This document shows, piece by piece, positions 3,514-62,610 of a stretch of 64,000 nucleotides of DNA. Position numbers and translations under genes: made by a program. The stretch covers positions 42,972,401 to 43,036,400 of the forward strand of contig CM120641.1 in assembly GCA_051362555.1 (NCBI GenBank), written 5' to 3'. This DNA is from Lingula anatina. Its lineage: Eukaryota > Animalia > Brachiopoda. Position 1 is the stretch's first letter. Every line of letters starts with the position of its first letter. The notes below the pieces were generated by a model. It was not told the DNA's origin and searched no databases. It saw only the letters and a program-made list of their open reading frames with translations.

Positions 3514-5106
3514 TCACTCAGCGCTATCACTACTTAACTTTTGTATTTTAGGCTGCTTCTTGTTCCAACTTCTGAGATTTCTATTGGCCTTATTCATAGC
3601 TGTTACACACCTACTCCACATCTTTTGTGGATTATTCTGAAAATCTGTGGGATACATATTTTGAACACAGTCCTTAATGAATTGTATACGAATGGGGCAG
3701 AAAGCTGTTCTTTTAACTGCAATATTTTCCATTCCTAAAACATTTTTATCATCTTGCAACCGCTCAGCTCTACTAAATATTTTACACATTATTTTTACAC
3801 AAAAGCCTTTAGCATCGGGTGACTTGTATTTAATTTGCTCTAATTCATGTCGAGTGATACCTAATGGGGAAAATTGCACAGCATGTGGCATGAGTGGCAT
3901 TTGAGAGTTGTGTATCAATGGTGTGGAGGATGAGATAGCATTAGATATATGACTGTTCTGGTCTTCAGCTTCAGGTCTCCCAGGGCCAGAAATGGAGTTT
4001 GCTCCATGTAGTAAGGATGCCCCAGCAGCCACTCCAGTATCAGTTTGAATGTGACAAGTTTCATGCCGCTTTGTCTCTCCAAAATCAGCAAATGTCTTAT
4101 CACAAACTATACACTTGAATTCTTTGCTGGAAGTTGCATTTATCTGTCTGTGTTTTCTTTCACATTCAATCACTACACTACAGCTGCTGTAGTACTCATT
4201 ACAGACTGAACATATGAAAATTGTAGTACCCGTTTTAGAACATTCGTGGCCACACACTAAACTTTGTCCAAATTCACTGTGTGTAGCAAAGCAAAACTTG
4301 CATGATGGAATTTTAAATCTTTCTTTACTGGAGCTAATTTGTGCAGAAACAGTAAGCTGACCAGAAGATGTGCAATTCTTATTTGAATCATTGTCAAATT
4401 GCTGGTTAAAACTTTCCAGTGACATACTAATTGTTTCCCTGTTGGCTTGTAGCTTTGGGGTTTTCTTGGGTTTCTGCTCAACTGAATTGGGGCTCTTTGA
4501 TATTTTACGTTTTAAAAAGGATTCCATATTTCTTGAATGACTGCCTTGTCTATCGACTGTTGAGGTGATTTCTTTTTCATTTGTTTTCTCTGTGCTATTT
4601 GGCATTGCATCAGTGCACTGATGAGTAATGCCTTTGTCAATTGTCTTTGAATACAACATTTCTTCCTCACTTGCAAAATGGTCATATTTAACAAGATTGG
4701 TACAGTTCTCATTACTGGACTGAAAACTTTCATAGCACTCAACATGCATATCTAAATCAAGATCATCTTCACAGTGTCTACTGAATGAATCTGTATCTGT
4801 CTTAACAAAATCCTGTGAAAAGTCAGCAAAGCTGGACTCTCTTTGTAAAGTGCTTGTGTCTGTTTGATTTGTTTTCTGGCTATCTACCAAAGTTTGACCT
4901 GCAGCAATTACTACTGGACAATTCAGGAGTGGAGATCTACTGACTTCACTCATCCTTAACACACTGTCACATACAGAACACCTTAAAGTCAAAGTCTGTT
5001 GTCCATCCTCTTTTGTTATAACATCCATCTTCATATGGATCAGCAGGTGTCCCTCTTGGCATATCTGTTGGCTTGAAGAAGCTGGTCTGCTCACATCAAT
5101 TCCCAT
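3514..5106 (-). CDS. Zinc finger + BEN-domain protein, cluster copy 1 (530 aa, single coding exon)
   Basis: Intact ORF containing CQEGH..CSVC, CKFC..HEC, CSVC-x12-C-x3-H and CIVC-x12-H-x3-H, plus a C-terminal FCVKIMCKIFSRAE..NVLG..CPIRIQFIKDCV..YP..WSRCVTAMNKANR matching the BEN pattern. Splice acceptor 23 nt upstream of the ATG; upstream non-coding exon donor (GTAAGT on the - strand) at 5783-5788. Confidence 0.85.
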   Translation of the reverse strand: MGIDVSRPASSSQQICQEGHLLIHMKMDVITKEDGQQTLTLRCSVCDSVLRMSEVSRSPLLNCPVVIAAGQTLVDSQKTNQTDTSTLQRESSFADFSQDFVKTDTDSFSRHCEDDLDLDMHVECYESFQSSNENCTNLVKYDHFASEEEMLYSKTIDKGITHQCTDAMPNSTEKTNEKEITSTVDRQGSHSRNMESFLKRKISKSPNSVEQKPKKTPKLQANRETISMSLESFNQQFDNDSNKNCTSSGQLTVSAQISSSKERFKIPSCKFCFATHSEFGQSLVCGHECSKTGTTIFICSVCNEYYSSCSVVIECERKHRQINATSSKEFKCIVCDKTFADFGETKRHETCHIQTDTGVAAGASLLHGANSISGPGRPEAEDQNSHISNAISSSTPLIHNSQMPLMPHAVQFSPLGITRHELEQIKYKSPDAKGFCVKIMCKIFSRAERLQDDKNVLGMENIAVKRTAFCPIRIQFIKDCVQNMYPTDFQNNPQKMWSRCVTAMNKANRNLRSWNKKQPKIQKLSSDSAE

Positions 5107-5788
5107 ACTGGTAGAGTTAACAGTGGATTCTGACAGATAAAGACAACAGAATATTGTAAATATGAAAAGGCATGTTGTGTTTTGTTATTCCAGTGATCAT
5201 GAAGCCATAATCGACTTCGTGTTTATATAGAAGTGTCAGTCTCCAATTCATGGAGATTTGACCTGTGACAATTGCATATCAATTTTATGCTTGCATGACT
5301 TCAATCGATGCCTTCATTATCCAAAGTTACTGTAATGTACTCAGACGTACTACCCACATCTAAAACTAATATGCAAAGATGAGTGTCAGAACAGTTGATT
5401 CATATCTCTCTGTTTAGAATATTCAGATAATGTTTTAAGTAACTGTAAAATGACAGTGAGCTACAGGTACATGTAGTACGTCCACTTTCCTGCTGGTGTT
5501 CTCAAATATTTTTCTAACTTCTCAGCTTCTAAAATTAGGTTACACACTGTTGAAAGCCTAATAGTTATGATGTTGACAGCATTATGAATAAGGTAAATTT
5601 TATCTGTTCGTCAACTATTTATGTTGTAGAGGACAGATAAGCTACCAAAATATACACCTGCTGAAGACTGGCAATAATGCGTGAAGTACATGTACATACA
5701 AGTACACGTTCATTGTACACTTCATGTACGTTTTGGAGGGGTTCAGAGATCTATTTTGTAAAACATTTGCTAAAATGCTGATACTTAC

Positions 5789-5965
5789 TTTCAAATTGTA
5801 TCTGGTAGACTGATCGTTTCCGCACGCCTGTCACTAATGAAATACTTCAAGGAACATTTTCGAACAGCAGCGGTAATTATTTGGTTTGCACTCCATGTCC
5901 GCCGACATGAATTGATAAAAAAATACCCACTGATACAAATCTTATACCAAGATAAGACAAATGGT
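5789..5965 (-). promoter_or_regulatory. Conserved 5' non-coding exon / core promoter block of the ZnF-BEN genes (also ~9810-9985, ~14010-14240, and ~29150-29350 on +)
   Basis: Copies 1, 2, 3 and 6 share TTTGTCTTATCTTG(G/A)TAT, GGCG(G/A)ACATGGAGTGCAAACC and a downstream GTAAGT donor, while the flanking intron sequence diverges. Confidence 0.6.
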
Positions 5966-6274
5966 TACTAACTTCATGTTTAATTTAAAGTTAATTTTAA
6001 TTTAATTTTTCTTAAACTTTATGTAATCGTGTTTAATCATTAGTTTTCAAGAAATGGTAGTTACCAGCTACATAGGCATCATGTCCATGGAAATATTACA
6101 TATGCAAACAAAACATAGAAATTAAAGTTATACAAGGTGTTCAAACTTAAGATGATTTACAGGTACATGGAAGTTGCAACTTAAAAACTTACCAGTAGAG
6201 CTAACAGCCTTTGCAACAGGATGCACAGATAGCTTACAAATATTGACACTGCACATGAAATATCAAATAAGTTG

Positions 6275-6571: not shown

Positions 6572-6602
<31 letters not shown>

Positions 6603-7575: not shown

Positions 7576-9204
7576 TCACTTTTGTATCCTACTCTGCTTC
7601 CTCCTTATGCATCTGAAACCTCTATTGCACGAATTCATGGCCGCTACACATGCACTCCACATCTTGGATGGATTATTCTGAAAATCTGTAGGATACATAT
7701 TCCAAACACAGTCCTTGATGAATTGTATACGAATGGGGCAGAGACTTTTCTTTTTGAGACCACCTGTCGAAATTCCTAAAACATTCCTATCATTTTGCAA
7801 CCGCTCATCACTACTAAAAATTTTGCACATTAATTTTATACAAAAACTTTTAGCATCATGTGCCTTGCTCTTAAGTTCCTCTAATTCATTTTGTGTAATA
7901 CACAGTCGGGAAAACTGAAAAGCCTGTGGCACTTGAGAGTGGTGTATTGTAGATGATGTGACAGCATGAGATATATGACTGTTCTGGTGCATGAGTGGCA
8001 CTTGAGAGTGGTGTATCAATGGCATGGATGATGTGATAGTATTAGATATATGACTGTTCTGGTAGTCAGGTTCAGGTCTCCCAGGGCCAGAAATGGAGTT
8101 TGCTTCATGTAGTAAGGATGCCCCAGCAGCCACTCCAGTATCAGTTTGAATGTGACAAGTTTCATGCCTTTTTGCTTCTCTGAAAGTAACAAATGTCTTA
8201 TCACAAACCATACACTTGAATTCTTCCTTGATGAAAGTTGCATTTACCTGTCTGTGTTTTCTTTCACATTCAACCAATAAGGTACAGCTGCTGTAGTACT
8301 CATTACAGACTGAACATATGAAAATTGTAGTGCCCGTTTTAGGACATTTGTGGATACACAATAAATTTTCTCCAAAGTCACTGTGGGTAGCAAAGCAAAA
8401 CTTGCATGATGGAATTTTAAACCTACGTTCACTGGAGCTAATTTGTGCAGAAACAGCAAGCTGACCAGATGATGAGGAATTCTTATTTGATTTGTTATCA
8501 GATAGCTGGTTAGAACTTTCCAGTGACACACTAATTGTCCCCCTGTTGGCTTGTAGCTTTGGGGTTTTCTTGGGTATCTGCTCAACTGAAATGGGGCTCT
8601 TCTGTATTTTACGTTTTAAAAATGATTCCATATTTCTTGGCTGACTGTCTCGTCTTCTTGTACCTCTATCTACTGTTGAGGTGATTTCCTTTTCATTTGA
8701 TTTCTCTGTGCTATTTGGGATTGCATCAGTGCACAGTGGTGAAATGGTTTTGTCAATTGTCTTCGAGTTCAACACATCCTCCTCATTTGCACAATGGTCA
8801 ATATTGTTACAATTCTCATTACTGAGCTGAAAACTTTCATAACTTTCAACATGCATATCTAAATCAAGATCATCTTCACAGTCATCACAGACTGAATCTG
8901 GATCTGTTTTAACAAAATCCTGTGAAAAGTCAGCAAAGCTGGACTCTCTTTCAGAAGTGTTTGTGTCTGCTTGATTTGTTTTCTGGATACTTTGACCTGC
9001 AGCAGTTACTACTGGACAATTCAGGAGTGGAGATCTACTGACTTCACTCATCCTTAACACACTGTCACATAAAGAACACCTTAAAGTCAAATTTTGTTGT
9101 CCATCATCTCTTGTTATAACATCCATCTTCATATGGATCAGCAGGTGACCCTCTTGGCATATCTCTTGGTTTGAAGAAAGTGGTCTGCTCATGTCAATTC
9201 CCAT
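7576..9204 (-). CDS. Zinc finger + BEN-domain protein, copy 2 (542 aa)
   Basis: Intact ORF with the same motif order as copy 1. In-frame internal duplication of QNSHIS..TSS..IHHSQVP before the BEN domain. Confidence 0.85.
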   Translation of the reverse strand: MGIDMSRPLSSNQEICQEGHLLIHMKMDVITRDDGQQNLTLRCSLCDSVLRMSEVSRSPLLNCPVVTAAGQSIQKTNQADTNTSERESSFADFSQDFVKTDPDSVCDDCEDDLDLDMHVESYESFQLSNENCNNIDHCANEEDVLNSKTIDKTISPLCTDAIPNSTEKSNEKEITSTVDRGTRRRDSQPRNMESFLKRKIQKSPISVEQIPKKTPKLQANRGTISVSLESSNQLSDNKSNKNSSSSGQLAVSAQISSSERRFKIPSCKFCFATHSDFGENLLCIHKCPKTGTTIFICSVCNEYYSSCTLLVECERKHRQVNATFIKEEFKCMVCDKTFVTFREAKRHETCHIQTDTGVAAGASLLHEANSISGPGRPEPDYQNSHISNTITSSMPLIHHSQVPLMHQNSHISHAVTSSTIHHSQVPQAFQFSRLCITQNELEELKSKAHDAKSFCIKLMCKIFSSDERLQNDRNVLGISTGGLKKKSLCPIRIQFIKDCVWNMYPTDFQNNPSKMWSACVAAMNSCNRGFRCIRRKQSRIQK

Positions 9205-10585
9205 ACTGGTGGAGTTAACAGTGGATTCTGAAAGATAAAGACAACAGAATATTGTAAATATGAAAAAGCATGTTGTGTTTTGCTTTTCCAGTGATCATGA
9301 AGCCATAATAGAGTTGGTGTTTACATAGAAGTGTCAATCTCCACACATATATTCATGGGAATTTGACCTTTGGCAATTGCATATCAATTTTATGTTTGCA
9401 TGACCTCAATCGATGCCTTCATTATCCAAAGTTATTGTAATGTACTCAGACGTACTACCCACACCTAAAATTAATATGCAAAATAGAATGTCAGAACAGT
9501 TGATTCACATCTCTCTATTTAGAATATTCAGATACTGTTGTAAGTAACTGTAAAATGACAGTGAGCTAGTACGTCCACCTTCATGTTGGGGCTCTCAAAT
9601 ATTTTTCTAACCTCTCACCTTCTCAAATTAAGTCACACACTGTTGAAAAGCCTAGTTATGATGTTACACCTGCTGAAGACTGACAATAATGCGTGAAGTA
9701 CATACTGGTACACGTTCATTGTACACTTCATGTACGTTTTGGAGGGGTTCAGAGCTCTATTTTGTATTTGCCCCTTTCAAAACATTTCCTAAAATGCTGT
9801 TACTTACTTTCAAATTGTATCTGGTAGACTGAACGTTTCCGCACACCTGCCACTAATGAAAAACATCAAGGAACGTTTCCGAAAATCAGCGGTAATTATT
9901 GGGTTTGCACTCCATGTCCGCCGACAGGAATTGGTAAAAAAATACCCACCGATATAAATCTTATACCAAGATAAGACAAACGGTTACTAACTTCCATGTT
10001 AAATTTAAAGTTAATTTTAATTTTTCTTAAACTTTATGTAATCATGTTTAATCATTAACTTTCAAAAAATGGTAGATACCAGCTACATAGGCATAATGCC
10101 CATGGAAATATTACAGACGCGAACAAAACATAGAAATTAAAGTTATGCAAGGTACAGGTACATACATGGAAGTTGCAACATAAAACTTACCAGTACAGCC
10201 AACAGCCTTTGCAACAGGGTGCACAGCTAACCTACAAATATTGACACTGCATATGAAATATCAAATAAGTTGCAGGGCCAGATCCAGGATTATGATTATT
10301 TGAAACTTTTTTTATTTTGGGGGGGGGGGGGGGGGGGGGGGGGAGGGGGGGGTTTGAATACGAAGCTGATCCTCAGGCCCCTTGGGATGGGGTTTGGGGC
10401 CCACTGAATAAAAGACCCCTGAAAAAGTTTATGTTAGAACAAACTGTGCCATTTGGTATAGTTTAGAACTATGAATCAGCTATTCAGAATTCTAATTTCA
10501 AGAGGGCCAAATATTAGTGTGATTTATTTTTTAGAAACCGAAGGCTGGGGGGTGGGGGTGGCAGGACCCCCCTGACCCCCCCCCC

Positions 10586-10616
<31 letters not shown>

Positions 10617-11754: not shown

Positions 11755-13251
11755 TCATTTTTGTATTCCACTCTGCTTTTTCTTTATGCATCTGAAACCT
11801 CTATTGCACAAATTCATGGCTGATACACATGTAGTCCACATCCTGGATGGATTATTCTGAAAATCTGTAGGATACATATTTCGAGCACAGTCCTTGATGA
11901 ATTGTATACGATAAGGACAAAGACTTTTCTTTTTGAGACCACTCCCACTTGAATTTCCTAAAACATTCTTATCGTTTTGCAACCGCTCATCACTACTAAA
12001 AATTTTACACATTAATTTTATACAAAAACTTCTGGCATCATGTGCCTTGCTCTTAATTTCCTCTAATTCATATTGTGTGATACACAGACGGGAAAACTGT
12101 GCAGCCTGTGGTGGCATGAGTGGTACTTGAGAGTTGTGTATCAATGGTGTGGATGATGTGATAGCATTAGATATATGACTGTTCTGGTCTTCAGGTTCAG
12201 GTCTCCCAGGGCCAGAAATGGAGTTTGCTTTGTGTAGTAAGGATGCCCCAGCAGCGACTACAGTATCAGTTTGAATGTGACAAGTTTCGTGCCTTTTTGT
12301 TTCTCTGAAATTAAGGTATGTCTGATCACAAACTATACACTTGAATTCTTCTTTGCTGGAAGTTGCATTTACCTGTCTGTGTTTTCTTTCACATTCAATC
12401 AATAAGGCACAGCTACTGTAGTACTCATTACAAACTGAACATATGAAAATTGTGGTACCTGTTTTAGGACATTTGTGGATACACAATAAATTTTCTCCAA
12501 AGTCACTGTGGGTAGCAAAGCAAAACTTGCATGATGGAATTTTAAACCTACGTTCACTGGAGCTAATTTGTGCAGAAACAGCAAGCTGACCAGATGATGA
12601 GGAATTCTTATTTGAATTGTTATCAGATAGCTGGTTAGAACTTTCCAGTGACACACTAATTGTTTCCCTGCTGGCTTGTAGCTTTGGGGTTTTCTTGGGG
12701 TTCTGCTCAACTGAAATGGGGCTCTTATGTACTTTACGTTTTAAAAATGATTCCATATTTCTTGGCTGACTGGCTTGTCTTCTTGTTCCTCTATATACTG
12801 TTGAGGTGATTTCCTTTTCATTTGTTTTCTCTGTGCTATTTGGCACAGCAGTCTCATTACTGAGCTGGAAACTCTCATAACTTTCAACATGCATATCTAA
12901 ATCAATATCATTTTCACAGTCTCCGCAGACTGAATCTGGATCCATCTTAACAAAATCCTGCGAAAAGTCATTAAAGCTGGACTCTCTTTGTAAAGTGTTT
13001 GTGCCTGTTTGATTTGTTTCCTGGCTATTTTGCAAAGTTTGACCTGCAGCAGTTACTACTGGACAATTCAGGAATGGAGATCTACTGACATCACTCATCC
13101 TTAACACACTTTCACATAAAGAACACCTTAAAGTCAAATTTTGTTGTCCATCCTCTTTTGTTATAACATCCATCTTCATGTGGATCAGCATGTGCCCCTC
13201 TTGGCATATCTGTTGGCTTGAAGAAGCTGGTCTGCTCATGTCAATTCCCAT
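11755..13251 (-). CDS. Zinc finger + BEN-domain protein, copy 3 (498 aa)
   Basis: Intact ORF with the same motifs. In-frame linker deletion relative to copies 2 and 4. Confidence 0.85.
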   Translation of the reverse strand: MGIDMSRPASSSQQICQEGHMLIHMKMDVITKEDGQQNLTLRCSLCESVLRMSDVSRSPFLNCPVVTAAGQTLQNSQETNQTGTNTLQRESSFNDFSQDFVKMDPDSVCGDCENDIDLDMHVESYESFQLSNETAVPNSTEKTNEKEITSTVYRGTRRQASQPRNMESFLKRKVHKSPISVEQNPKKTPKLQASRETISVSLESSNQLSDNNSNKNSSSSGQLAVSAQISSSERRFKIPSCKFCFATHSDFGENLLCIHKCPKTGTTIFICSVCNEYYSSCALLIECERKHRQVNATSSKEEFKCIVCDQTYLNFRETKRHETCHIQTDTVVAAGASLLHKANSISGPGRPEPEDQNSHISNAITSSTPLIHNSQVPLMPPQAAQFSRLCITQYELEEIKSKAHDARSFCIKLMCKIFSSDERLQNDKNVLGNSSGSGLKKKSLCPYRIQFIKDCARNMYPTDFQNNPSRMWTTCVSAMNLCNRGFRCIKKKQSGIQK

Positions 13252-14625
13252 TCTTGCGGAGTAAAAAATTGGATTCTGAAAGATAAAGATGACAGAAAAA
13301 AATGTTGTTGTGCTTTGATTACTCCAGTGATTATGACGTCATGATGGATGTGGTGTGCATATAGCAATGTCAGTCTCCACACATATATTCATGGGTATTT
13401 GACTTGTGACAATTGCCCCACAACTGCATAGCATTTTATTGTTTGTTCTTTATCAATGGTTTCATCATCCAAAGTAATATACTCAAAAGTACTGCCCACA
13501 TTTAGAATGCATGTGCAAAATAGAGTGTCAGAACAGTTGATTCACATCTCTTTTCTGCATGAAATTCAACACATTAATATACTTCCATTTAACGTTTTCT
13601 GATTTGTACTATATGCCCTCACTGACATCGTTGTAACTGTAAATGGCGGAGTTAGTTCATCAACCTTGAAGCTGGGGCTCTCAAGTTTTTTATTTTCATC
13701 ATTCATAGTATCTTCCATATGAGACAAATAATTTTGCTGTAGACGGAACAATGAATAAGGTAAAATTTATCTGTGTGTTGACTAGCTACTTATGCCGTGG
13801 AGAAAAGAAGAAACACAAAATGTACACCGGCTGAAGACTGCCAAGGTATTGTATGCATGTATGATGTAAAGTACATTATAATTCGTGTACGTTTTGGATA
13901 TTTATTCTCTGAATTCTAAACACGTTAACGTTGCACTGGCCTGCTCGGACGCCACGGATATTTTAAAACTTGTGTCCCTTTAAAACATGCGTTAAATTGC
14001 TTTTACTTACTTTCAAAATGTATCTGGTTGATTGATCGTTTCTGCACGCCTTTTGTCACTAATGAAAAACCTCAAGGAGTAAGTGGGAAAGTTAGTGGAA
14101 GTGCATGCACGTGACTAGCACACGTACGTGGGCGCCTTTGTTGCGTTATGGCGAAATGGTTTGCACTCCATGTTCGCCAACACGAATTGAGAAAAAAGTA
14201 TCCACCGATAAAATATCCCTTATACCAAGATAAGACAAAGTGAAATATATTCATGCTAGTTACAAAGTTTACGTTGATTGAATTTTTTTCAGAACTTTAT
14301 CTAATCGCCTTTAATCAGCAGTTTTCAAGAGAATAGTATTGTGCTTATGGAAATTTGATAGAATTTATCTAATAATGTTAAAACATTTTTTTGCAATATT
14401 TTTCTTTGACCCAATGGTCAGATACGATGATAAAGACTTTTATCCAGCCAAGTTTAATTTAAATAAAAATGCCATTTGACATATTGCTTTAAAAGACAGA
14501 CTTTGTAAAATAGCAACTTTGCCAAATTAGGGGGCATGTGTCAGCTTGGGGCCCATTATAAACGGTAACATTTAAACAAAAGGTGAATATACATGTACAT
14601 GTATATATATACATGTATATGAACA

Positions 14626-15533: not shown

Positions 15534-17105
15534 CTATTCCACTTGCCTCTGCTTATTACTACTTCTGAGACATCTATTGGCCGTATTCATGGCTGTTACA
15601 CACCTATTCCACATCCTTTGTGGATTATTCTGAAAATCTGTGGGATACATAGTTTGAACACAGTCCTTAATGAAATGTACACGAATGGGGCAAAAAGCTG
15701 TTTTTTTAACTGCAACATTTTCAGTTCCTAAAATATTTTTATCATTCTGCAAGCGCTCGGCTCTACTAAATATTTTACACATTAATTTTACACAAAAGCC
15801 TTTAGCATCAGGTGACTTATATTTCATTTGCTCCAATTCATGTTGAGTGATACTTAATGGGGAAAATTGTAAAGCCTGTGGCAAAGGTAGCACTTGAGAG
15901 TTGTGTATCAATGGTGTGGATGATGTGACAGCATGAGGTATATGACTGTTCTGGTCTTCATCTTCAGGTCTCCCAGGGCCAGAAATGGAGTTTGCTTCAT
16001 GTAGTAAGGATGCCCCAGCAGTCATTCCAATATCAATTTGAATGTGACAAGTTTCATGCCGCTTTGTTTCTCCAAAATCAGCAAATGTCTTATCACAAAC
16101 TATACACTTGAATTCTTCTTTGCTGGAAGTTGCATTTATCTGTCTGTGTTTTCTTTCACATTCAATCACTACGCTACAGCTGCTGTAGTACTCATTACAG
16201 ACTGAACATATGAAAATGGTGCCACCTGTTTTAGGACATTTGTGGCTGCACACTACACTTTGTCCAAATTCACTGTGGGTAGCAAAGCAAAACTTGCATG
16301 ATGGAATTTTAAACCTACGTTCACTGGAGCTAATTTGTGCAAAAACAGAAGGCTGACCAGAAGATGTGCAATTCTTATTTGAATCATTATCAGATTGCTG
16401 ATTAGATCTTTTCAGTGACACACTAATTGTTCCCCTGTTGGCTTGTAGCTTTGGGTTTTTCTTGGGTATCTGCTCAACTGAAATGGGGCTCTTCTGTATT
16501 TTACGTTTTAAAAATGATTCCATATTTCTTGGCTGAATATCTTGTGTTCTTGTACCTCTATCCACTGTTGAGGTGATTTCCTTTTCATTTGTTTTCTCTG
16601 TGCTGTTTGGGACTGCATCAGTGCACAGTGGTGAAATGGTTTTGTCAATTGGCTTTGAGTACAACACATCTGCCTCATTTGCACAAAGGTCAATATTGCT
16701 AGAATTCTTATTACTGAGCTGAAAACTTTCATAACTTTCAACATGCATATCTAAATCAAGATCATCTTCACAGTCACCGCAGACTGAATCTGGATCTGTT
16801 TTAACAAAATCCTGTGAAAAGTCATTAAAGCTGGACTCTCTTTCAGAAGTGTTTGTGTCTGCTTGATTTGTTTTCTGGCTATTTTGCAAAGTTTGACCTG
16901 CAGCAGTTACTACTGGACAATTCAGGAGTGGAGATCTACTGACATCACTCATCTTAAACACACTTTCACATAAAGAACACCTTAAAGTCAAAGTCTGTTG
17001 TCCATCCTCTCTTGTTATAACATCCATCTTCATATGGATCAGCAGGTGCCCCTCTTGGCATATCTGTTGGTTTGAAGAAGCCGGTCTGCTCATGTCAATT
17101 CCCAT
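15534..17105 (-). CDS. Zinc finger + BEN-domain protein, copy 4 (523 aa from the conserved MGIDM start)
   Basis: Intact ORF. The extension to 17255 in the ORF track runs through the conserved intron acceptor, so the paralog-conserved ATG at 17105 is used. Confidence 0.85.
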   Translation of the reverse strand: MGIDMSRPASSNQQICQEGHLLIHMKMDVITREDGQQTLTLRCSLCESVFKMSDVSRSPLLNCPVVTAAGQTLQNSQKTNQADTNTSERESSFNDFSQDFVKTDPDSVCGDCEDDLDLDMHVESYESFQLSNKNSSNIDLCANEADVLYSKPIDKTISPLCTDAVPNSTEKTNEKEITSTVDRGTRTQDIQPRNMESFLKRKIQKSPISVEQIPKKNPKLQANRGTISVSLKRSNQQSDNDSNKNCTSSGQPSVFAQISSSERRFKIPSCKFCFATHSEFGQSVVCSHKCPKTGGTIFICSVCNEYYSSCSVVIECERKHRQINATSSKEEFKCIVCDKTFADFGETKRHETCHIQIDIGMTAGASLLHEANSISGPGRPEDEDQNSHIPHAVTSSTPLIHNSQVLPLPQALQFSPLSITQHELEQMKYKSPDAKGFCVKLMCKIFSRAERLQNDKNILGTENVAVKKTAFCPIRVHFIKDCVQTMYPTDFQNNPQRMWNRCVTAMNTANRCLRSSNKQRQVE

Positions 17106-17513
17106 ACCAGTGGAGAGAGGAATGCAATCTGAAAGATAAAGATGACATATTATTTTAAACATAAAAAAATTTTTTGTTTTAATTATTCCTGTGAACACAT
17201 AGCTGTAACTGAAATGATCTACCGGGGTATGTGTATAAACAGGGCCAGTCTTCACACATTTAGTATGCTTGGGGTCTGACTTGTGACAATTTGCATATTA
17301 ATTTAAACATGTTCAGTACTTAATTGGCTTCTATCAATGGTTTTATTATAAAAAAGTGGTGTACCCAGAGGTACTACTGCACCTTAAATGTAATATATTA
17401 GTATTTAATTTTTTTCTAATGTGGACTTTTATTTTATTTGCTGAAAGAAACAATTGAATTTAACTGTAAAATGGTAATGACTTAGCCCGTTCAGCCTTTA
17501 ACTTGGCTCTCAC

Positions 17514-17615
17514 TTGCCTCAGTTTTCGGCCTTACAAGCTCACGGTACCCTTACCGCTGGTAGCCTTACCAGCGGTAAGGGTACCGTGAGCTTGTAAGGC
17601 CGAAAACTGAGGCAA
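17514..17615. mobile_element. 102-bp perfect foldback MITE with 9-bp TSD (GGCTCTCAC)
   Basis: Perfect 49-bp arms TTGCCTCAGTTTTCGG...GCTGGTA / TACCAGC...CCGAAAACTGAGGCAA around a 4-nt loop (GCCT). GGCTCTCAC at 17505-17513 and 17616-17624. Paralogous introns have a single GGCTCTCA. Confidence 0.85.
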
Positions 17616-20258
17616 GGCTCTCACCTTCTCAAGTCCCGAACTGCTGCAACCAGTTTTGTTGTGAAGTCTGAAGAAGATGAAATTTATCTACCCGTCTATC
17701 AGTTGTTTTCAGATATTATGCTGTAGAGAAATGACTGTTTATGACTGCCAACATCTGTCTATTGTGTATGTACATTCAGATATTTAATTTTACCTGTGCC
17801 CCTTTTGAAATAAAATACTCGTTAGCACTCTACTAGCACCAACACGAATAAAGAAATCTCTCCTGGAAAAGCGCCACCTACAGTTTTGTCTCCAAACAAC
17901 AATTCAGTTTATGACACCGGACCTGTGCGCTCTACATGATAATTTCGTGACCACTGATTCTATACGGTAAGTTTTTCACGCTCCTCTAACAAACACTTTG
18001 GTGTGTATCATTGTCACTTGTAGCTACCAGAAGACTAAATAACCTTGACCACTCAGGTTCACTGTATTTGGCGATAGTAAGTAAAAACTGAGCCACGCTT
18101 TTGCTTTTGGTGCAAGAAATTTTGACACTTTTGCTGTATTCCCCCACCATGAAACTTGGTGACATTCAATATTAAATTATTTGTGTGGTGAATTTGAGTA
18201 ATATCTCCTCTACTCAAATAGTTTGTAGATTTGTTTACCAATTTTAAGATGCTTGTACAGTGGTAGCTTTATTGACGCCGCCTTAATTCACAACTAAAGT
18301 TTATTCGAAGGCTAACAGATTGGCGGATTAAATATGGCTTGAAAAGCTTATAGTGTATTTCCCCAAGGGGAATTGACTCGGTGTCTGTTAGGGGAATGTG
18401 TGATAAGCTGGCAAGTAGGTTTGCCATAAATGATCCGGGGAGTGGGTTTTGCTACACACCCAGTGACAGTCTCAGGGGAAATCCTAGACTAGGTCTGACT
18501 CTCTGGAGGGTCTCAGTAAAGTGCTATCATCTTAACTGGCTTAAATATCTCTCACGCCTACCGAATCAGCAAGAGGGTAAAGATAACTACTCCCTTACGG
18601 CTTTACTCACCCTCATTGCTAAAAGGATAGGAAAGGAATGTCATGCCTTATGAATTAAGTTTCGCCCTTATTGACAAATTGTTGTTCTACTTACCTTTCA
18701 TTCTTCTAGTTATTCTGTTTTTTTTCCTGAAATTTTTCAACATTGGCTTTAGTGCCAGTTTTGACTTGTTTTGTGATAATTTTTTTCAATTTTTTCTAGT
18801 TTAAACCAGTTTCCATTGTTAACTCAAACAGAATGGGAATTGACATGAGCAGACCAGCTTCTTTAAGCCAACAGATATGCCAAGAAGGGCACCTGCTGAT
18901 TCATATGAAGATGGATATTATAACAACAGAGGATAAACAACAAAATTTGACTTTCAGGTGTTCTTTATGTGACACTGTGTTAAAAATGATTGATGTCGGT
19001 AAACTTATCAATCATCCAGTAGTAACTGCTATAGATCACACTTCGCAAAATAGCCAGACAACAAATCAAACAGACACAAACACTTCAGCAAGAGAGTCAA
19101 GTTTTGTTGATTTCGCACAAGATTTTACAAAAACTGAGTTAGCTTCATCAGAAAGAGAGTCAAGTTCTGCTGAGGTTGCACAAGATTTTACAAAAACTGA
19201 GTTAGCTTCATCCCAGGGAGAACGTGAAGATGAGATTTCAGAAAGAGAGAGTAATTTTAATGACTTTGCAGTAAAGACAGAGTTAGTTTCTCTCCAGGGC
19301 GATTGTGAAGATGACATCGGCTTAGATATGCACGTTGAAAGTTATGAGAGTGTCGAGCTTGATCTTGGAAATAAACAAGAAAATAGTGCAGCAAATTCCA
19401 ACCAGATGCAACCTTTGACTAATGATACAGAAGCTGGTACCTCATCTGTTCAACAAATTGTTTCTGACAAGAGAAAATCCAATGCAAATAGTGCAGCAAT
19501 TTCCAACCAGATGCTACCTTTGACTAATGTTACAGAAGCTGGTACCTCATCTGTTCAACATATTGTTTCTGACAAGAGAAAATCCAATGCACCTTCTGGA
19601 TATAAGGAACCACTAAGTAAATTTTGCAAATCGACTGAAGGTGAGTTTGGACAAAGTTTAATGTGGGGCCACGTGTAAAAAAATTAAAAAGCATCCTTTT
19701 GAGCTGTTCTGTCTGTAGTGATTATTATGGCAGCTGTAAACTTTGTGGTGGAATGTGAAAGCAAACACAGACTTTTAAAAAACAATTGCTCCAAGCAGGC
19801 TGGTTGCCAGGGGGGGTTGGGGGGGGTTCCATTGAACCACCCTTTTTGCCTTGAAAAGGTCTGCTCTAAGTCAAATTTTGATCACTGTTCTTTGTCATTT
19901 CTCACTGTTCTCAATAAAGAATATTCATCATTTTTATACAAAAAGTGAAATAAAGCAGACAGTTTTGATAGTTACGCTCTGCGTCAAATATACCCAATGG
20001 GAGAGTAAGGTCGTCAACTTCACTTGCATTTTAAGTTGCCAACGCATTTTTGCTATTAGCGTCAAAACACACTCTTTATGTGTAATTTATTGGAATGATA
20101 ACTAAAATCCAAAAACCCACAGATCTCTAGCTAAGACTTGTTAGGTTATGGCGTCATTTTTTGTCAAAAAGTAATGATTGAACTTTTAAAAATCAGCACA
20201 CATCTTTGTCGTTCATTTGGTCGTCCATGACACAAATGGAAGGTTAGGACTACTCGGA

Positions 20259-22907: not shown

Positions 22908-23673
22908 CAAATACTTATGTTAACATGTAAATCTACAATAAAAATAGCATTGTGTCCAATGCAATGTCCGAATGCAATGGGGCAGGAATCCTTTTTAATA
23001 AATTTCTCAAAAATGCTGGCCTGGGTTATCTTTTTGTGATATGCACTATATGGAGAAATTATAAGTCTTTCAACACATAAGATTAGGAACCAGTAACATA
23101 GGATATCATGAATTTTTATATTGTGCTTATTAGCAGCAAAAATAAGTATATTGGAATTTTTCTTTTCACTTAAATATATTCCCTGTTAATGAAAGATAGC
23201 CTTCAATACTTTTCAGCAAATTAAATATATTTGAATAATTAACATCTTAGGTTTTCTTCAATAAAAACCTTTTTTTTATTTTTGTGATAGAGGTCCACTT
23301 TTTCAGAAATAGAACACCCCCTTTGAAACTGCGGTTACTGTCCTTAGAGTCCGAGGAAGAGTTAAAGTGTAGAATGAAATTTGCAGATTGGAAAAAAAAA
23401 AAAAGAAAAAAAAACATGAATTTTGTCACAATTCAAATGATATTGAAGTGCTTTCTAAACTTTATGATTATTCAAACAATTGTTTGGTTATCTGCATAGG
23501 TTAAAACATTGACTATTTTCTGGCTTTTTCACTTCTAGATGAGACTTGATACTCTGTGCCTTCTGGTATTGATGAAGGTAACATTTAATCAGGGCATTTA
23601 GATGTGAAATTTTATTGTAGTATTTTTAAATCACTTGGAGAAAAAAATTTCCTCACCTTAGCTGCAACAGTAT

Positions 23674-28700: not shown

Positions 28701-28701
<1 letters not shown>

Positions 28702-28755: not shown

Positions 28756-28757
<2 letters not shown>

Positions 28758-30160: not shown

Positions 30161-31486
30161 ATGGGGATTGACATGAGCAGACCTTCTCCAAACCAACAGA
30201 CATGCCAAGGTGGGCACCTGCTGATCCATATGAAGATGGATGTTATAACAAGAGAGGGTGGACAACAGACTTTGACTTTAAGGTGTTCTTTATGTGAAAG
30301 TGTGTTACGGATGAGTGATGTTAGTAGATCTGAACTCATCAATCATCCAGTAGTAACTGCTGCAGGTCAAACTTTGCAAAATAGCCAGGAAACAAATCCA
30401 ACAGACACCAACATTCTAGAAAGAGAGTCTAATTTTGACAACTTTGCAATAAAGACAGAATTAGTTTCTACTGAGGGAGAATGTGAAGATGACATTGACT
30501 TAGATATGCATGTTGAAAGTTATGAGGGCACTCAGCTTGATCTTGGCAATAATAATCAAGCAAATAGTGCAGCAAAATCTAACCAGGTGCTGCCTTTGGC
30601 TAACAATACAGAAGAAGCTGGTACTTCATCTGTTCAACAGATTATTTCTGACACAAGAAGATCCAATGCACCTTCTGGATTTGAAGAACCACTATGTAAA
30701 TTTTGCAAATCAACTGAAGGAGAGTTTGGAGAAAGTTTTATATGGGGCCACATGTGTAAGAAATTAAAAAGCATACTTTTCATCTGTTCTGTCTGCAATG
30801 AATATTACGGCAGCTGTAACCTTGTGACAGAATGTGAAAGCAAACACAGACGTATAAAAAACAATTGCAACAAGGAAGAGTTTAAGTGTATGGTTTGTGG
30901 CATAAAATTTGCAGATTTAGGAGAAACAAAAAGGCATGAATTTTGTCACAATTCAAATGATTCTGAAGTGCTCTCTGATACCTCTTTACAACCTGAATTA
31001 AACGACTCAAGATTTCACGGACCTGAAACAGAAAACCATCACACACAGAAGTTTCAAGTCATGGCACTGCCGGCACCATCAAACAGCAGACATGTGCCAT
31101 CCCGCGAAAACCAGCAATTGACGCAGGGTGCACAAATTCTACCACCTATCATCAGTCCACAAGAAATAGAAGAGATTAAACATAAGTCGTTCAAACCTGA
31201 AAGTTTCTGTGTTGCATTAATGGCAAAGATATTTAGTAGGGTGGAGCGGTCAGAGAAGGACACAAATGTTTTGGGAATAAAAAAACTGAAAAAATTATGT
31301 CCAGTTCGTATACAGTTCATTAAAGACTGTGTTCATCAAAATTATCCCAAGCATTTTCAAAAGGAACCTGGAAAGACGTGGTCTCGATGTGTAGGTGCCA
31401 TGAACAATGCCAACAGATCTTTAAGATTTAAAGATGCACAGTTCAAGATTTTTCTGCAAAAAACTCGAAAAAACTCAAAAAAGTGA
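30161..31486 (+). CDS. Zinc finger + BEN-domain protein, copy 6 (441 aa from MGIDM)
   Basis: Intact ORF with all zinc motifs and BEN-like FCVALMAKIFSRVE..NVLG..LCPVRIQFIKDCV..YP..WSRCVGAMNNANRSLR. Acceptor 23 nt before the ATG; 5' exon donor at ~29350. Confidence 0.85.
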   Translation: MGIDMSRPSPNQQTCQGGHLLIHMKMDVITREGGQQTLTLRCSLCESVLRMSDVSRSELINHPVVTAAGQTLQNSQETNPTDTNILERESNFDNFAIKTELVSTEGECEDDIDLDMHVESYEGTQLDLGNNNQANSAAKSNQVLPLANNTEEAGTSSVQQIISDTRRSNAPSGFEEPLCKFCKSTEGEFGESFIWGHMCKKLKSILFICSVCNEYYGSCNLVTECESKHRRIKNNCNKEEFKCMVCGIKFADLGETKRHEFCHNSNDSEVLSDTSLQPELNDSRFHGPETENHHTQKFQVMALPAPSNSRHVPSRENQQLTQGAQILPPIISPQEIEEIKHKSFKPESFCVALMAKIFSRVERSEKDTNVLGIKKLKKLCPVRIQFIKDCVHQNYPKHFQKEPGKTWSRCVGAMNNANRSLRFKDAQFKIFLQKTRKNSKK

Positions 31487-37176: not shown

Positions 37177-38496
37177 CTAAGACTTTGTTGCATTATAAAA
37201 TCTTAAAGATCTGTTAGCACTGTTCATGGCACCAACACATTTTCTCCACCGGCACATCTCATTTTGGAAATGCTGTGGATAATTTTGATGGACACAGTCT
37301 TTTATGAACTGTATACGAACTGGGCAGAATTTCTTTTTATTAAAAGTTCCCAAAATATTTGTGTCATTCTGCAACCGTTCGGCATTACTTAATATCTTTG
37401 CCATTAATGCCACACAGAACTGTTCAGGCTTTTGCGACTTGAATTTTATGTGTTGTAAGTCTTGTGGACTGATGATGGGTGGTAGAATTTGTGTACCCAC
37501 TGTCAATGACCGGCTTTCATGGGATGGCACTTGTATGTTGTTTGATGGTGTGGATGATGCCATAGATGGCAACTTCTGTGTTTGCTGGTTTTCTGATTCA
37601 GGTCCCTGAGATTTGGAGTCGGAGTTTAATTCAGGCTGCACAGAGATACCAAAATGCACTTCAGAGTCATTTGAATTGTGACAAAGTTCATGCCTTTTTG
37701 TTTCCCTTAAATCTGCAAATTTTATACTACAGACCATACACTTAAACTCTTCCTTGTTATAACTGTTTTTTATAAGTCTGTGTTTCCTTTCACATTCTGT
37801 CACCAAGTTACAGCTGCCGTAATACTCATTGCAGACGGAACAGATGTAAATGTTGCCTTCCAACTTTTTACAGTTGTGGCCCCAGATTAAACCTTGTTCA
37901 AATTCTCCTTCAGTTGCATTGCAAAATTTACACGTTGGTTTCCTCACTCCAGAAGGTGCACTGAATCCTCTCTGGGCAGAAAAAGTCTGTGGAACAGATG
38001 AGATGCCAGCTTTTGCTGTATGATTAGCAAGAGGTGCAATCTGGTTGGGATTTTTTAAAAGGTCACTAACTGTTGCAATATTTCCTTGGTTATGTTTGGC
38101 AAGATCAAGCTGGCCGCTTTCATAACTTTCAACCTGCATGTCTAACCCAATGCTACCTTCACAGTCTTCACAGGTTAAATCTGAGTCTGTCTTTATAAAA
38201 TTATGTGCAAAGTCATCAAATTTAGACTCTCTTTCTGTAGGGTTTGTGTCTGTTTGATTTGCTTTCTGGCCATTTTGCAAAGTTTGACCTGCAGCAGTTA
38301 CTACTGGATGATTAATAAATGCAGATCTACTGAAGCCACTCATCCTTAACACACTGTCACATAAAAAACACCTTAAAGTCAAAGTCTGTTGTCCATCCTC
38401 TCTTGTTATAACATCCATCTTCATATGGATCAACAGGTGCCCCTCTTGGCATGTCTGTTGGCTTGAAGAAGCTGGTCTGCTCATGTCAATTCCCAT
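37177..38496 (-). CDS. Zinc finger + BEN-domain protein, copy 7 (439 aa from MGIDM)
   Basis: Intact ORF, closest to copy 6 (ILPPIISPQ, FCVALMAKI, VGAMN.ANRSLRF) and convergent with it. Confidence 0.85.
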   Translation of the reverse strand: MGIDMSRPASSSQQTCQEGHLLIHMKMDVITREDGQQTLTLRCFLCDSVLRMSGFSRSAFINHPVVTAAGQTLQNGQKANQTDTNPTERESKFDDFAHNFIKTDSDLTCEDCEGSIGLDMQVESYESGQLDLAKHNQGNIATVSDLLKNPNQIAPLANHTAKAGISSVPQTFSAQRGFSAPSGVRKPTCKFCNATEGEFEQGLIWGHNCKKLEGNIYICSVCNEYYGSCNLVTECERKHRLIKNSYNKEEFKCMVCSIKFADLRETKRHELCHNSNDSEVHFGISVQPELNSDSKSQGPESENQQTQKLPSMASSTPSNNIQVPSHESRSLTVGTQILPPIISPQDLQHIKFKSQKPEQFCVALMAKILSNAERLQNDTNILGTFNKKKFCPVRIQFIKDCVHQNYPQHFQNEMCRWRKCVGAMNSANRSLRFYNATKS

Positions 38497-41944: not shown

Positions 41945-42550
41945 ACATATTGTGGTGGGTTGTTCTAAAATACATTTTAGTAAGATTTTTTTTCTTGGTT
42001 TCTAGGCTGAGTTATCTTTTTTAATAATCTCTGGCCTACAGATCAGTTTTTTAGTTGAAAGAAAACCCACAATTTTTATAAACCCAATCAAGCATCCTTA
42101 AAATAACCGTATTACTAATATGCTCCTAATTATATGAAGAATAATTTGTCAATCAGAATTATTCAGATTATATGGGGTGACTACATGGCTGTTATCTCAT
42201 TTCTGCCCATATAAACAGTGGCTGCCCATATTAAAGAGTGGAAAAATACATCAGATTATAAACTGTCAATCATCTTGCAATTTAATACTATAAAAAATTT
42301 AATGCTTTAATTACATTCCAGTACATTTGTAAATATTCAGTTTTGCATAATGATAACTGGAAATTAATAAGAACTCTTGGGCAATTTTTAGGCCAGTGAT
42401 GTTATATTCCAGTTGAAACATGACATTATCTCTCATGCTTGTTTGATTTTACTACAATATTATCAATGTGTCACTATTTACACTACACCTACACAAAGTT
42501 CTGTTCATTACCATGATAAGTCAAACCAGAATAAGTGCTACACACATCAG

Positions 42551-44029
42551 TTATTCATTCTGCTTAAGCCTCTCCCTCCTTGAAAAACCTCGACAATAAC
42601 TATCGATGGCTGATCTTATTTTAGGCCATTCGAGGTCTAGGCCATAATTGGTCATTCCAAAAGCCTGACACAAACTTCTTTTAATTGTTTCAATCTTTTC
42701 AGCATTTAACCTTTTCTTTCCATTAACACCATTAATATTAGCTCCAATTATCTCTACTCTAGAAAATAACCGTTTCACTAGTCTTGTGGCAAATGCAGTT
42801 ACAGTGCCAGTCTGCTGTTTAAGTTTATACAGGTCTTTTAAACTGGGAGCACTGGGGATAGGGGCTGATTCAGACAGTTCGGATGAAGCTACCGAGTCAA
42901 CCTGACTGTGACAGGTTTCATGCCTTTTAGTTTGTTGCATGTCCTGGAAGGTTTTGTTACAAAAAATACACTTGTATTCCTCTTTATCATGTGCAGTAGT
43001 TACAAGTCTGTGTTTTCTTTCACAATCCATGACACTGTCAAAGTTTTCATAATACTCATGGCACACTGAACATATAAAAACAATGGTGTCTGTTCTGGGG
43101 CAGGCGTGGCCCCACACTGTGCATTCTCCCAACTCGCCCTGGGTGGAATTGCAAAATTTACATGACAGTTTTCTTAATCTTTTAGCTTTCCCAGACCTAA
43201 ACTGAGACTGTCCAGTTGAGGACACTGTCTGCACAGGAATCTGGGACTGAGGCACTGGACTCGCCTGTAGTTTTGTTCTTTTGGATATACTGGCATATTC
43301 ACCCTGTCTAGAATCATTCCTCAACAAGCGTTTACATGTAGTTGACCTCTCTTCAGGCAAAACTGGGTTATGCTCCGCATGAATGTGTGAAAGAAGATTT
43401 TTACGTGTTGTAAAATATGTTCCACATTCACTACAAAAATACCGACTCTGCCTTTTCCATTTGGAATGTTCGTCACCTTGGTCCGGAACACCATTCTGTC
43501 CATAATTTTTATCAGCAGAATTACATGTCCCTTCATCTTCATCACTTCCATGGGAACTGTCATCTCCAACATTCTCTGATGTAAATGTATCATTGTTCAT
43601 TTCAATTTCAAAACTGCTGACATGTAAATCTGAATCAAACTCACTGTCATTATCAGCAGCACTATTGCAGGCACTGGCCACACCAGTAAATGTCACCTCT
43701 GGTTCTGGTTTTATCAATCCCTGAGAATCATCCTTCAGTCTTAACCCTTCTACACTCTGCTCTGGCTCATGTCCTAGAGTGCACAGGCTGGTCAAGGTAG
43801 CTGGTGCAGTACCAGTACTTGTACCATAGTCACCATATGCAGCATGATCTGACTGGTCCAGCTCTGAGCAAGGCGTCATTCGAAATGAAATTTCACAAAC
43901 TGAACATCTAAAGAACAGTTCTGGAGGAGAATTATCCTTCATTTCAATGTCCAGTTTTATGCTAGTTAGCAGGTGCCCATTCTGGCACTCCCCTGCAGGT
44001 CCTACTGGTTGACTGACTCTGATACCCAT
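42551..44029 (-). CDS. Divergent zinc finger + BEN-domain protein, copy 8 (492 aa from MGIRVS), with an extra C2H2 finger
   Basis: Contains CQNGH..CSVC, an extra YFCSECGTYFTTRKNLLSHIHAEH finger, CKFC..HAC, CSVC..CERKH, CIFC..HETCH and a very BEN-like FATRLVKRLFSRVE..NINGVNGKKRLNAEKIETIK..WPKIRSAIDSYCR. Confidence 0.87.
   Translation of the reverse strand: MGIRVSQPVGPAGECQNGHLLTSIKLDIEMKDNSPPELFFRCSVCEISFRMTPCSELDQSDHAAYGDYGTSTGTAPATLTSLCTLGHEPEQSVEGLRLKDDSQGLIKPEPEVTFTGVASACNSAADNDSEFDSDLHVSSFEIEMNNDTFTSENVGDDSSHGSDEDEGTCNSADKNYGQNGVPDQGDEHSKWKRQSRYFCSECGTYFTTRKNLLSHIHAEHNPVLPEERSTTCKRLLRNDSRQGEYASISKRTKLQASPVPQSQIPVQTVSSTGQSQFRSGKAKRLRKLSCKFCNSTQGELGECTVWGHACPRTDTIVFICSVCHEYYENFDSVMDCERKHRLVTTAHDKEEYKCIFCNKTFQDMQQTKRHETCHSQVDSVASSELSESAPIPSAPSLKDLYKLKQQTGTVTAFATRLVKRLFSRVEIIGANINGVNGKKRLNAEKIETIKRSLCQAFGMTNYGLDLEWPKIRSAIDSYCRGFSRRERLKQNE

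Positions 44030-53561: not shown

Positions 53562-62610
<9,049 letters not shown>

What the first reader, a model, noticed from the sequence alone, without database searches (positions are those of the whole stretch)
3514..44029. Eight-gene cluster of an apparently unnamed multi-zinc-module + BEN-domain protein family
Seen: eight paralogs (seven intact) in ~41 kb between WDR27 and FSIP1, each with one coding exon. They share an N-terminal module, an S/T/acidic linker, three zinc motifs and a C-terminal BEN-like domain, and occur in tandem, divergent and convergent orientations. Known: BEN domains are sequence-specific DNA-binding/chromatin modules (BANP, NAC1, Insensitive, BEND family; also poxvirus E5R and polydnaviruses). 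Inference: a lineage-specific, rapidly duplicating regulator array with birth-and-death evolution, loosely analogous to KRAB-ZNF or ZAD-ZNF clusters and possibly aimed at repeats or viruses. I do not recognise this domain combination.
Basis: partly seen in the sequence, partly recalled or inferred. Interest (0 to 1): 0.85.

Follow-up and report, generated by a model that had tools for sequence, protein, structure and literature searches.

The report
Brachiopod zinc-finger BEN regulator gene cluster
The brachiopod Lingula carries a cluster of eight related genes (seven intact, the four tested are transcribed) for proteins that likely bind DNA through a BEN domain, and the copies appear to keep a shared zinc-binding front end nearly alike while their predicted DNA-reading ends drift apart, one BEN domain probably having been swapped for another along the way.

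Summary
Confirmed. Eight paralogs (seven intact, one broken) lie between a WD40 gene and FSIP1; named database matches (97-99% identical) are Lingula anatina proteins. All four copies tested are transcribed and spliced (5'UTR exon plus one coding exon). The C-terminal domain is a BEN domain (Pfam, profile hit to BEND3 E 5e-9, fold match Z 11.6) and keeps the guanine-reading arginine in 7 of 7 intact copies, while neighbouring base-contact positions vary. Head and zinc module were found only at this Lingula locus. No positive selection was found, so an anti-transposon arms race is unsupported. C2H2+BEN fusions are already in print; this architecture was not found in print. Verdict: new lineage-specific variant of a known kind.

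The parts
3514..5106 (-). g1 coding exon, 530 aa: zinc-ribbon-like head (aa 16-52), S/T/acidic linker, three-site zinc module (aa 269-352), BEN (aa ~411-517)
   Evidence: RNA depth 13-23x in run X1
5130..5788 (-). g1 5'UTR intron (GT..AG on - strand)
   Evidence: 23 spliced reads in X1, 2 in X4
7576..9204 (-). g2 coding exon, 542 aa
   Evidence: BEN E 8e-4; 99.4% to XP_013379298.1; RNA 15-17x
9228..9807 (-). g2 5'UTR intron
   Evidence: 21 spliced reads in X1
11755..13251 (-). g3 coding exon, 498 aa
   Evidence: BEN above Pfam cut-off, 26 vs 23.2 bits; 99.2% to XP_013379275.1; RNA 31-43x
13276..14010 (-). g3 5'UTR intron
   Evidence: 17 spliced reads in X1, 5 in X4
15534..17105 (-). g4 coding exon, 523 aa
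   Evidence: RNA 10-22x
17129..17624 (-). g4 5'UTR intron, using a donor different from that of g1-g3
18833..19795 (+). g5, broken copy, 5' part: first Cys of the zinc module lost, frameshift and stop at 19676-19678, internal 63- and 105-bp duplications
23354..23456 (+). g5 remnant resuming after a ~3.5 kb insertion (third finger); no BEN remnant found beyond it
   Evidence: blastn to g6, 73% over 112 nt, E 1e-15; six-frame BEN profile scan
30161..31486 (+). g6 coding exon, 441 aa; conserved upstream donor context at ~29350
37177..38496 (-). g7 coding exon, 439 aa
42551..44029 (-). g8 coding exon, 492 aa: most divergent copy, extra classical C2H2 finger (aa 197-220), BEN of a different lineage (closest solved structure BANP)

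Best explanation
This is a Lingula gene cluster of seven intact paralogs that likely encode sequence-specific DNA-binding regulators, predicted to read DNA with a C-terminal BEN domain and probably to reach a shared partner through a zinc-binding head that gene conversion appears to keep alike. Shown: architecture, BEN fold, the conserved DNA-contact Arg and Asn, transcription and splicing of g1-g4, purifying selection on zinc module and BEN core, a 5' tract of low synonymous divergence, and two BEN lineages inside the family. Inferred mechanism: helix 5 of the BEN enters the major groove, the invariant Arg (BANP R316 / BEND3 R810) reads a guanine, and the variable positions three before and one after it (K/S/L/T/N/S/S and N/G/G/C/S/S/G) give copies different motif preferences; the basic loop binds the backbone; the C2H2-type module adds DNA or protein contacts; the head plus a conserved psi-K-x-E/D site (SUMO-type consensus, recalled) and an acidic D-x-D-x-H-V-E motif form a common effector platform, most likely repressive as for BEND3, NACC and Insensitive. 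Inferred history: a g8-like gene was duplicated, the copy took over the BEN of another Lingula BEN family (relative XP_013418091.1), and this chimera expanded to g1-g7 by tandem and inverted duplication, with repeated ectopic exchange at the 5' end and loss of g5.
For: BEN: Pfam hits in 7 of 7 intact copies, 1 of 7 above cut-off; profile of 7 BENs hits BEND3-BD4 at E 4.7e-9; AlphaFold pLDDT 79-93 over most of aa 421-510; VIA Z 11.6 BANP (rmsd 2.9, 102 aligned), five BEN structures at Z 9.2-11.6, next row 5.9. Invariant Arg and loop Asn align with BEND3 R810/N762 and BANP R316/N269 (contacts from PMC8887127 section 10 and PMC10206803 passages; residue numbers counted from the alignments). Expression: stranded reads on the correct strand over g1-g4 at 10-43x against 5-6x for the neighbour's last exon in X1, 4 of 2096 reads fitting two places. 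Selection, three independent pairs: zinc module pN/pS 0.36 (p 6e-6), BEN core 0.37 (p 6e-7), head 0.54 (p 0.046), linkers 0.88-0.97. Homogenised head: pS aa 1-95 0.10-0.21 vs 0.53-0.67 in zinc module + BEN for 5 of 5 cross-clade pairs tested, Fisher p 1e-5 to 4e-13; g8 is outside the tract (0.79); branch between g1-4 and g5-7 0.02 in the head tree vs 0.45 (g1-4 vs g6-7) downstream; four-taxon site patterns in g1-g4 differ between head and tail, p 2e-9; head is not depleted of allelic change (13 of 22 differences of g6+g7 from the NCBI proteins lie in aa 1-130, p 0.004). BEN swap: g8's BEN ranks g6 only 147th and is 37-41% identical to other animals' BENs vs 21-27% to its neighbours; the first outside hit of 5 of 6 g1-g7 BENs is Lingula XP_013418091.1; monophyly of the seven BENs rejected, p-AU 0.00012 (37 rows, LG+G4) and 0.014 (33 rows, mixture model).
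Against: No binding, motif, partner or repression was measured. Divergence in helix 5 is not significantly faster than in the BEN core (pN 0.13 vs 0.10, p 0.27), so motif diversification is inferred from aligned positions only. g8's BEN is a long branch (1.7-2.1), tree rows were chosen by BLAST similarity to the window's BENs and the domain has only 95 columns, so the swap could be overstated; a two-BEN ancestor with differential loss gives the same tree. The head tree still keeps g5-g7 on one side (88/90) and does not reject g1+g4 (p-AU 0.065), so conversion is shown by branch length and site patterns, not by a firm topology conflict. The head model has pLDDT only ~55-62.
Confidence: 0.6

Rival explanations
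1. The copies are functionally redundant: a dosage array of one regulator, drifting by neutral birth-and-death; the homogenised head is a passive by-product of recombination between neighbours and has no functional meaning.
For: Overall pN/pS about 0.5 and linkers near 1; one copy is dead; g1-g4 rise and fall together between runs X1 and X4; helix-5 change not significantly accelerated; third-finger contact positions nearly constant (E at +3 in 6 of 7, R at +6 in 7 of 7).
Against: Three BEN types (g1/g4, g2/g3, g6/g7) plus g8 persist at 50-64% identity despite exchange a few hundred bases upstream, which is what selection against homogenising the DNA-binding end would leave.
Confidence: 0.2
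2. The array is a KRAB-ZNF-like defence system whose members are driven apart by an arms race with transposons or viruses.
For: Lineage-specific head + zinc fingers in a tandem cluster, as in KRAB, ZAD and FiNZ families (PMC10547256 passages); strongly sample-dependent expression, about 8-27x higher in X1 than X4 per base read; variable base-contact positions; BEND3 is described as a heterochromatin-associated repressor.
Against: No domain with significant pN/pS > 1; zinc module and BEN core under purifying selection; fixed finger number; only eight members found against hundreds of FiNZ-ZNFs.
Confidence: 0.1
3. The genes are a domesticated or still mobile gene of a transposon or DNA virus.
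For: Single coding exon; BEN domains occur in poxviruses and polydnaviruses; transposon remnants lie inside the cluster; many BEN relatives come from short unnamed contigs.
Against: Spliced 5'UTR exons; duplication units include promoter and intron; coding CpG observed/expected 0.17-0.33, like the bodies of the neighbouring host genes at 0.24; no transposase tied to the copies; no viral fold match for the zinc module at E <= 0.001; no relative in the metagenome scan.
Confidence: 0.05
4. The BEN domain is a non-DNA-binding ('type 0') protein-interaction module and the proteins are adaptors.
For: The second-best fold match is BEND3-BD1, a type 0 domain (Z 10.8, tied within 1); g1-g7 have Arg at +3 rather than +4 of the reading Arg.
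Against: Invariant reading Arg and loop Asn, basic loop and basic C-terminus, long helix 5 as in type I domains.
Confidence: 0.05

Closest known systems
BEN-domain transcription factors (Pfam PF10523): BANP, BEND3, NACC1/2, BEND6, Drosophila Insensitive/Elba
   Same: BEN fold, loop Asn-x-x-Gly-basic motif, Trp and reading Arg in helix 5; C-terminal position after a disordered linker.
   Different: Head and zinc module have no counterpart in these proteins; tandem multi-copy cluster; g1-g7 BENs form a Lingula clade with XP_013418091.1.
C2H2+BEN and C4DM(ZAD)+BEN fusions noted by Abhiman et al. 2008 (seen only as cited in PMC8887127 and PMC5043383; the paper itself was not held); Amphiura XP_072016271.1 (C2H2 + several BENs)
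   Same: Zinc fingers and BEN in one chain.
   Different: None of the 147 non-cluster hits listed matches the head or zinc-module profile; here the fingers are atypical (C2HC, C2CH, C2H2) and preceded by an orphan zinc head.
KRAB-, ZAD- and FiNZ-headed C2H2 zinc-finger clusters (PMC10547256)
   Same: Lineage-specific conserved N-terminal module, zinc fingers, tandem cluster, gene loss.
   Different: Head and fingers share one exon; three fixed fingers instead of variable arrays; main predicted DNA reader is BEN; no positive selection detected; eight copies.
Lingula BEN protein XP_013418091.1 (labelled 'proteoglycan 4')
   Same: BEN 35-41% identical to g1-g7; sister or near-sister in both trees (97/81, 99/96).
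   Different: Similarity is confined to the BEN; no zinc head or fingers.

Membership tests
BEN domain family (PF10523) | Sequence match to the BEN profile | tested here: met
   g3 26 bits vs cut-off 23.2; the other six intact copies 13-20 bits, below cut-off; family profile hits BEND3-BD4 at E 4.7e-9
BEN domain family (PF10523) | Five-helix fold with middle loop | tested here: met
   AlphaFold helices 419-428, 432-443, 446-449, 471-489, 493-517; VIA Z 11.6 to BANP, rmsd 2.9 over 102 residues
DNA-binding (type I) BEN domains | Long helix 5 with guanine-reading Arg and basic loop between helices 3 and 4 | tested here: met
   Arg and loop Asn invariant in 7 of 7, aligned to R810/N762 and R316/N269
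DNA-binding (type I) BEN domains | Sequence-specific DNA binding | not testable with these tools
   needs SELEX/PBM/EMSA
Classical C2H2 zinc fingers (PF00096) | C-x2-C-x12-H-x3-H pattern and profile match | tested here: inconclusive
   Third site and g8's extra finger fit the pattern but score below cut-off; module profile hits ZBTB17 fingers at E 1e-5; sites 1 and 2 are C2HC and C2CH variants predicted to pack as one unit, best fold matches weak (Kaiso, E 0.13; Z <= 4.5)
ZAD-ZNF / KRAB-ZNF / FiNZ-ZNF | N-terminal ZAD (C4DM), KRAB or FiNZ domain | tested here: not met
   0 of 8 heads match zf-AD or KRAB in Pfam at E <= 10; head is predicted beta. FiNZ itself is not a profile that was scanned
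ZAD-ZNF / KRAB-ZNF / FiNZ-ZNF | Variable array of classical fingers under positive selection | tested here: not met
   fixed three-site module, pN/pS 0.36
Zinc ribbon (head) | Two knuckles on beta-hairpins binding one zinc | tested here: inconclusive
   C-x3-H and C-x2-C invariant in 8 of 8; three strands predicted at pLDDT ~55-62; Atlas structure rows TM 0.44-0.57, several to zinc ribbons, all under the naming bar

The most novel reading that the evidence does not exclude
A brachiopod-specific 'constant head, variable reader' regulator system: an orphan zinc-ribbon head, kept interchangeable by recurrent gene conversion so that all copies plug into one effector complex, is coupled to BEN domains that act as the diversifying DNA readers and that were replaced wholesale once by capture from an unrelated BEN family; this would be a BEN-based counterpart of KRAB/ZAD zinc-finger arrays.
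Probability: 0.3. Interest if true: 0.72.

Novelty: new variant of a known kind. Interest (0 to 1): 0.5.

Why it matters
BEN domains are known mostly from single-copy genes of flies, worms and mammals. A natural series of seven expressed or intact paralogs that share the reading arginine but differ at the neighbouring contact positions is a ready test set for a BEN recognition code. It defines an unannotated zinc head. The interest is limited by the restriction to one genus so far and by the lack of any functional data.

Tried and rejected
Homodimer prediction for the head: no verdict (score 0.01, alignment not used). No whole genome is held, so copies elsewhere in the genome and synteny in other lophotrochozoans could not be checked. 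No RNA holder was listed by the index; raw-read runs with the same species label were laid instead; X7 and X9 are uninformative because the neighbour gene is barely covered too. Word-based searches with g3, with g8 aa 300-492 and with the head profile found only Lingula proteins of this locus (4 of 4411, 1 of 223, 5 of 2378 candidates). Full HMMER search: 558 proteins at E <= 0.001, best 150 listed, 3 from this family and 147 matching through the BEN region only; the other 408 were not seen. Metagenome scan with the zinc module: 221 pattern hits, none confirmed. Atlas: no usable feature hit for the head; whole protein only C2H2-type leads under 0.9. Fold searches of the zinc module gave no match at E <= 0.001 or Z >= 5; this shows no new fold. 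The head was not folded and searched alone. Rfam: 0 matches. Positive selection in helix 5 tested and not found; IQ-TREE codon runs printed no omega. A second, decayed BEN in the window was sought and not found. Mobile-element origin considered and rated low. Literature: 'BEN domain'+'Lingula' 0 papers; further listings showed no description of this family; the two Lingula genome papers have no BEN-domain mention in main text or in the supplements held as text (1 file and 3 files). Abhiman 2008 and Pan 2023 were not held; their figures or supplements, and supplementary tables not held as text, could list these proteins.
Full report
Observation. The window has eight ORFs of at least 150 codons and all are paralogs of one family (alignment). 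Seven run from a conserved MGI start to a C-terminal helical domain. The fifth (18833, + strand) has lost the first cysteine of its zinc module, stops at 19678 after a frameshift, is interrupted by about 3.5 kb of other DNA at 19796-23353 and resumes for about 100 bp before it is lost. The right neighbour is FSIP1, the left a spliced WD40 gene (the name WDR27 is recalled), and a JmjC gene follows FSIP1. Database matches at 97-99% identity are Lingula anatina proteins labelled uncharacterized or 'zinc finger protein 574-like'; exact copies of g1 and g4 are not in the collection.

Gene structure and expression. Stranded reads of run X1 cover g1-g4 on the expected strand at about 10-43x, against 5-6x over the last exon of the neighbour; only 4 of 2096 laid reads fit two places. 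GT-AG joints at 5129/5789, 9227/9808 and 13275/14011 show a 5'UTR exon spliced to one coding exon; for g4, 26 loose ends point to a different donor near 17624. Per base read the four genes are roughly 8-27 times lower in X4, where they equal the neighbour. X7 and X9 barely cover either. Only window 1-17140 was laid, so expression of g5-g8 is untested here.

Anatomy. (1) Head, aa 1-56: C-x3-H-x22-C-x2-C invariant in 8 of 8, three predicted strands at modest confidence, weak structural likeness to zinc ribbons, no Pfam family, and no match outside this locus. (2) Linker: S/T-rich and largely disordered, but with an invariant Lys in a psi-K-x-E/D context in 8 of 8 and a conserved D-x-D-x-[HQ]-V motif; reading these as SUMO site and cofactor motif is recalled knowledge, untested. 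(3) Zinc module: C-x2-C-x14-H-x-C, C-x2-C-x12-C-x3-H, C-x2-C-x12-H-x3-H, all ligands invariant in 7 of 7. The profile hits classical C2H2 proteins (best E 1e-5); AlphaFold packs the first two sites into one unit (pLDDT 72-83) with no strong fold match. g8 has one more classical finger. (4) BEN: Pfam, profile match to BEND3-BD4 at E 4.7e-9, and fold match to five BEN structures at Z 9.2-11.6 with the next row at 5.9 (Foldseek agrees in rank but has no row at E <= 0.001). The helix-5 Arg and loop Asn that contact DNA in BEND3 (R810, N762; PMC8887127 section 10) and BANP (R316, N269; PMC10206803 passages) are invariant; the positions equal to E807/S313 and R811/T317 vary among copies.

Distribution. 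HMMER over 1.84 billion representatives gave 558 hits at E <= 0.001; of the 150 listed, three are this family and 147 match through the BEN region. None of those 147 matches the head or zinc-module profile. One is an independent C2H2 + multi-BEN protein of a brittle star. The full architecture is thus Lingula-only as far as these searches see; brachiopods are thinly sampled, so this is not proof of genus restriction.

Evolution, selection. For three independent pairs (g1/g4, g2/g3, g6/g7) pN/pS is 0.36 in the zinc module, 0.37 in the BEN core, 0.54 in the head and 0.88-0.97 in the linkers; helix 5 has 0.88 but its amino-acid change is not significantly above the core (p 0.27). There is no evidence of positive selection.

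Evolution, homogenised head. Between g1-g4 and g6/g7 synonymous difference is 0.10-0.21 in codons 1-95 and 0.53-0.67 in zinc module plus BEN (5 of 5 pairs tested, p <= 1e-5); the step falls near codon 90-100. g8 is not part of it (0.79). Within g1-g4 the tail groups g1+g4 against g2+g3 at 61 of 66 informative sites, the head at 2 of 15 (p 2e-9). The head is enriched, not depleted, in allelic amino-acid differences (13 of 22 for g6+g7; 3 of these 13 toggle between states both seen in other paralogs), which argues against constraint on the DNA and for ectopic gene conversion. Against: the head tree keeps g5-g7 on one side (88/90) and does not reject g1+g4 (p 0.065); conversion is inferred, and whether it is selected or passive is open.

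Evolution, BEN swap. Head (about 40%) and zinc module (48-54%) tie g8 to the others, but its BEN is only 21-27% identical to theirs and 37-41% to BENs of other animals, with BANP the closest solved sequence (E 2e-4). The BENs of g1-g7 are closest to another Lingula protein that shares nothing else with them. Trees place g1-g7 with that protein (97/81 and 99/96) and g8 across a starred branch; holding all seven together is rejected (p-AU 0.00012 with 37 rows; 0.014 with the mixture model after leaving out four long rows, P0006, P0091, P0033, P0014). Rows were the top BLAST hits of g8, g4, g7 and g3 among the 147; g8 is a long branch; the direction of the swap is not shown, and a two-BEN ancestor is possible, though no second BEN remnant lies in the window.

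Mechanism. Most likely each intact copy is a nuclear regulator that binds DNA through BEN helix 5, with paralog-specific flanking preferences, is helped by the zinc module, and acts through a common head and short linear motifs, probably as a repressor like BEND3, NACC and Insensitive (established knowledge). DNA binding, motifs, partners and repression are all inferred. Rivals: redundant dosage array (0.2), transposon arms race (0.1), mobile-element gene (0.05; coding CpG o/e 0.17-0.33 like host neighbours), non-DNA-binding adaptor (0.05).

Comparison with what is known. BEN fused to C2H2 fingers or C4DM is mentioned in PMC8887127 (passages and sections 10 and 12 read) and PMC5043383 (one passage), both citing Abhiman 2008, which was not held. 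Head-plus-finger clusters are known as KRAB, ZAD and FiNZ families (PMC10547256 passages); the membership tests for those fail. Other papers seen: PMC11514455 and PMC10789644 (passages), PMC10080584 (first of two parts, main text and references), PMC4595640 and PMC13121700 (term searches in text and held supplements, no BEN-domain mention). Searches for this family in print found nothing.

Verdict. Real, at least partly expressed, undescribed as far as searched; a new variant of a known kind. Interest 0.5: the domain classes and the cluster pattern are familiar, but the orphan head, the apparent BEN replacement and the constant-head/variable-reader pattern are specific and testable.

Noticed in passing
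window 24400-24640 and 26971-27255 (+), with basic-rich pieces at 21082-22412 (+): Exon-like pieces of a separate classical C2H2 zinc-finger gene (PF00096 E 1e-8 and 7e-13) between g5 and g6, partly inside the insertion that breaks g5; possibly the cargo of a decayed transposon.
   Followed up: partly
window 32600-33620 (-): Decayed pogo/Tc5-like transposase: HTH_Tnp_Tc5 E 0.0014 and HTH hits; a DDE-like stretch is recalled by eye, no Pfam hit.
   Followed up: partly
window 17513-17616: A 104-bp near-perfect palindrome (96%) directly beside the g4 exon-1 donor, within the 1.7 kb shared upstream region of the divergent g4/g5 pair; g4 and g5 use 5' exons unlike those of g1-g3 and g6.
   Followed up: partly
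window ~11490-11630: Short repeat in the g3 3'UTR that collects hundreds of partly fitting reads in all four RNA runs: an abundant transcribed SINE/MITE-like element; no Rfam match.
   Followed up: no
window 25533-26577 and 34481-34838: Tandem arrays of 146-bp (7 copies) and 34-bp (10 copies) units.
   Followed up: no
window 22742-22907, 23673-23792, 24103-24212: Several copies of a short element with 37-bp terminal inverted repeats (MITE-like), in both orientations.
   Followed up: no
window ~57300-62700 (+): Multi-exon JmjC gene (JmjC_2 E 8e-16), by recall RIOX1/NO66, head to head with FSIP1.
   Followed up: no
P0009 (XP_013418091.1): A Lingula protein labelled 'proteoglycan 4' is a BEN-domain protein with a Pro/Thr-rich linker; the label looks like a low-complexity artefact.
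   Followed up: partly
window 9227/5789: Five X1 reads join the g2 coding exon to a first exon placed at g1; most likely an allele of g2 exon 1 that fits g1 better, but it would also fit an exchange between the copies.
   Followed up: no
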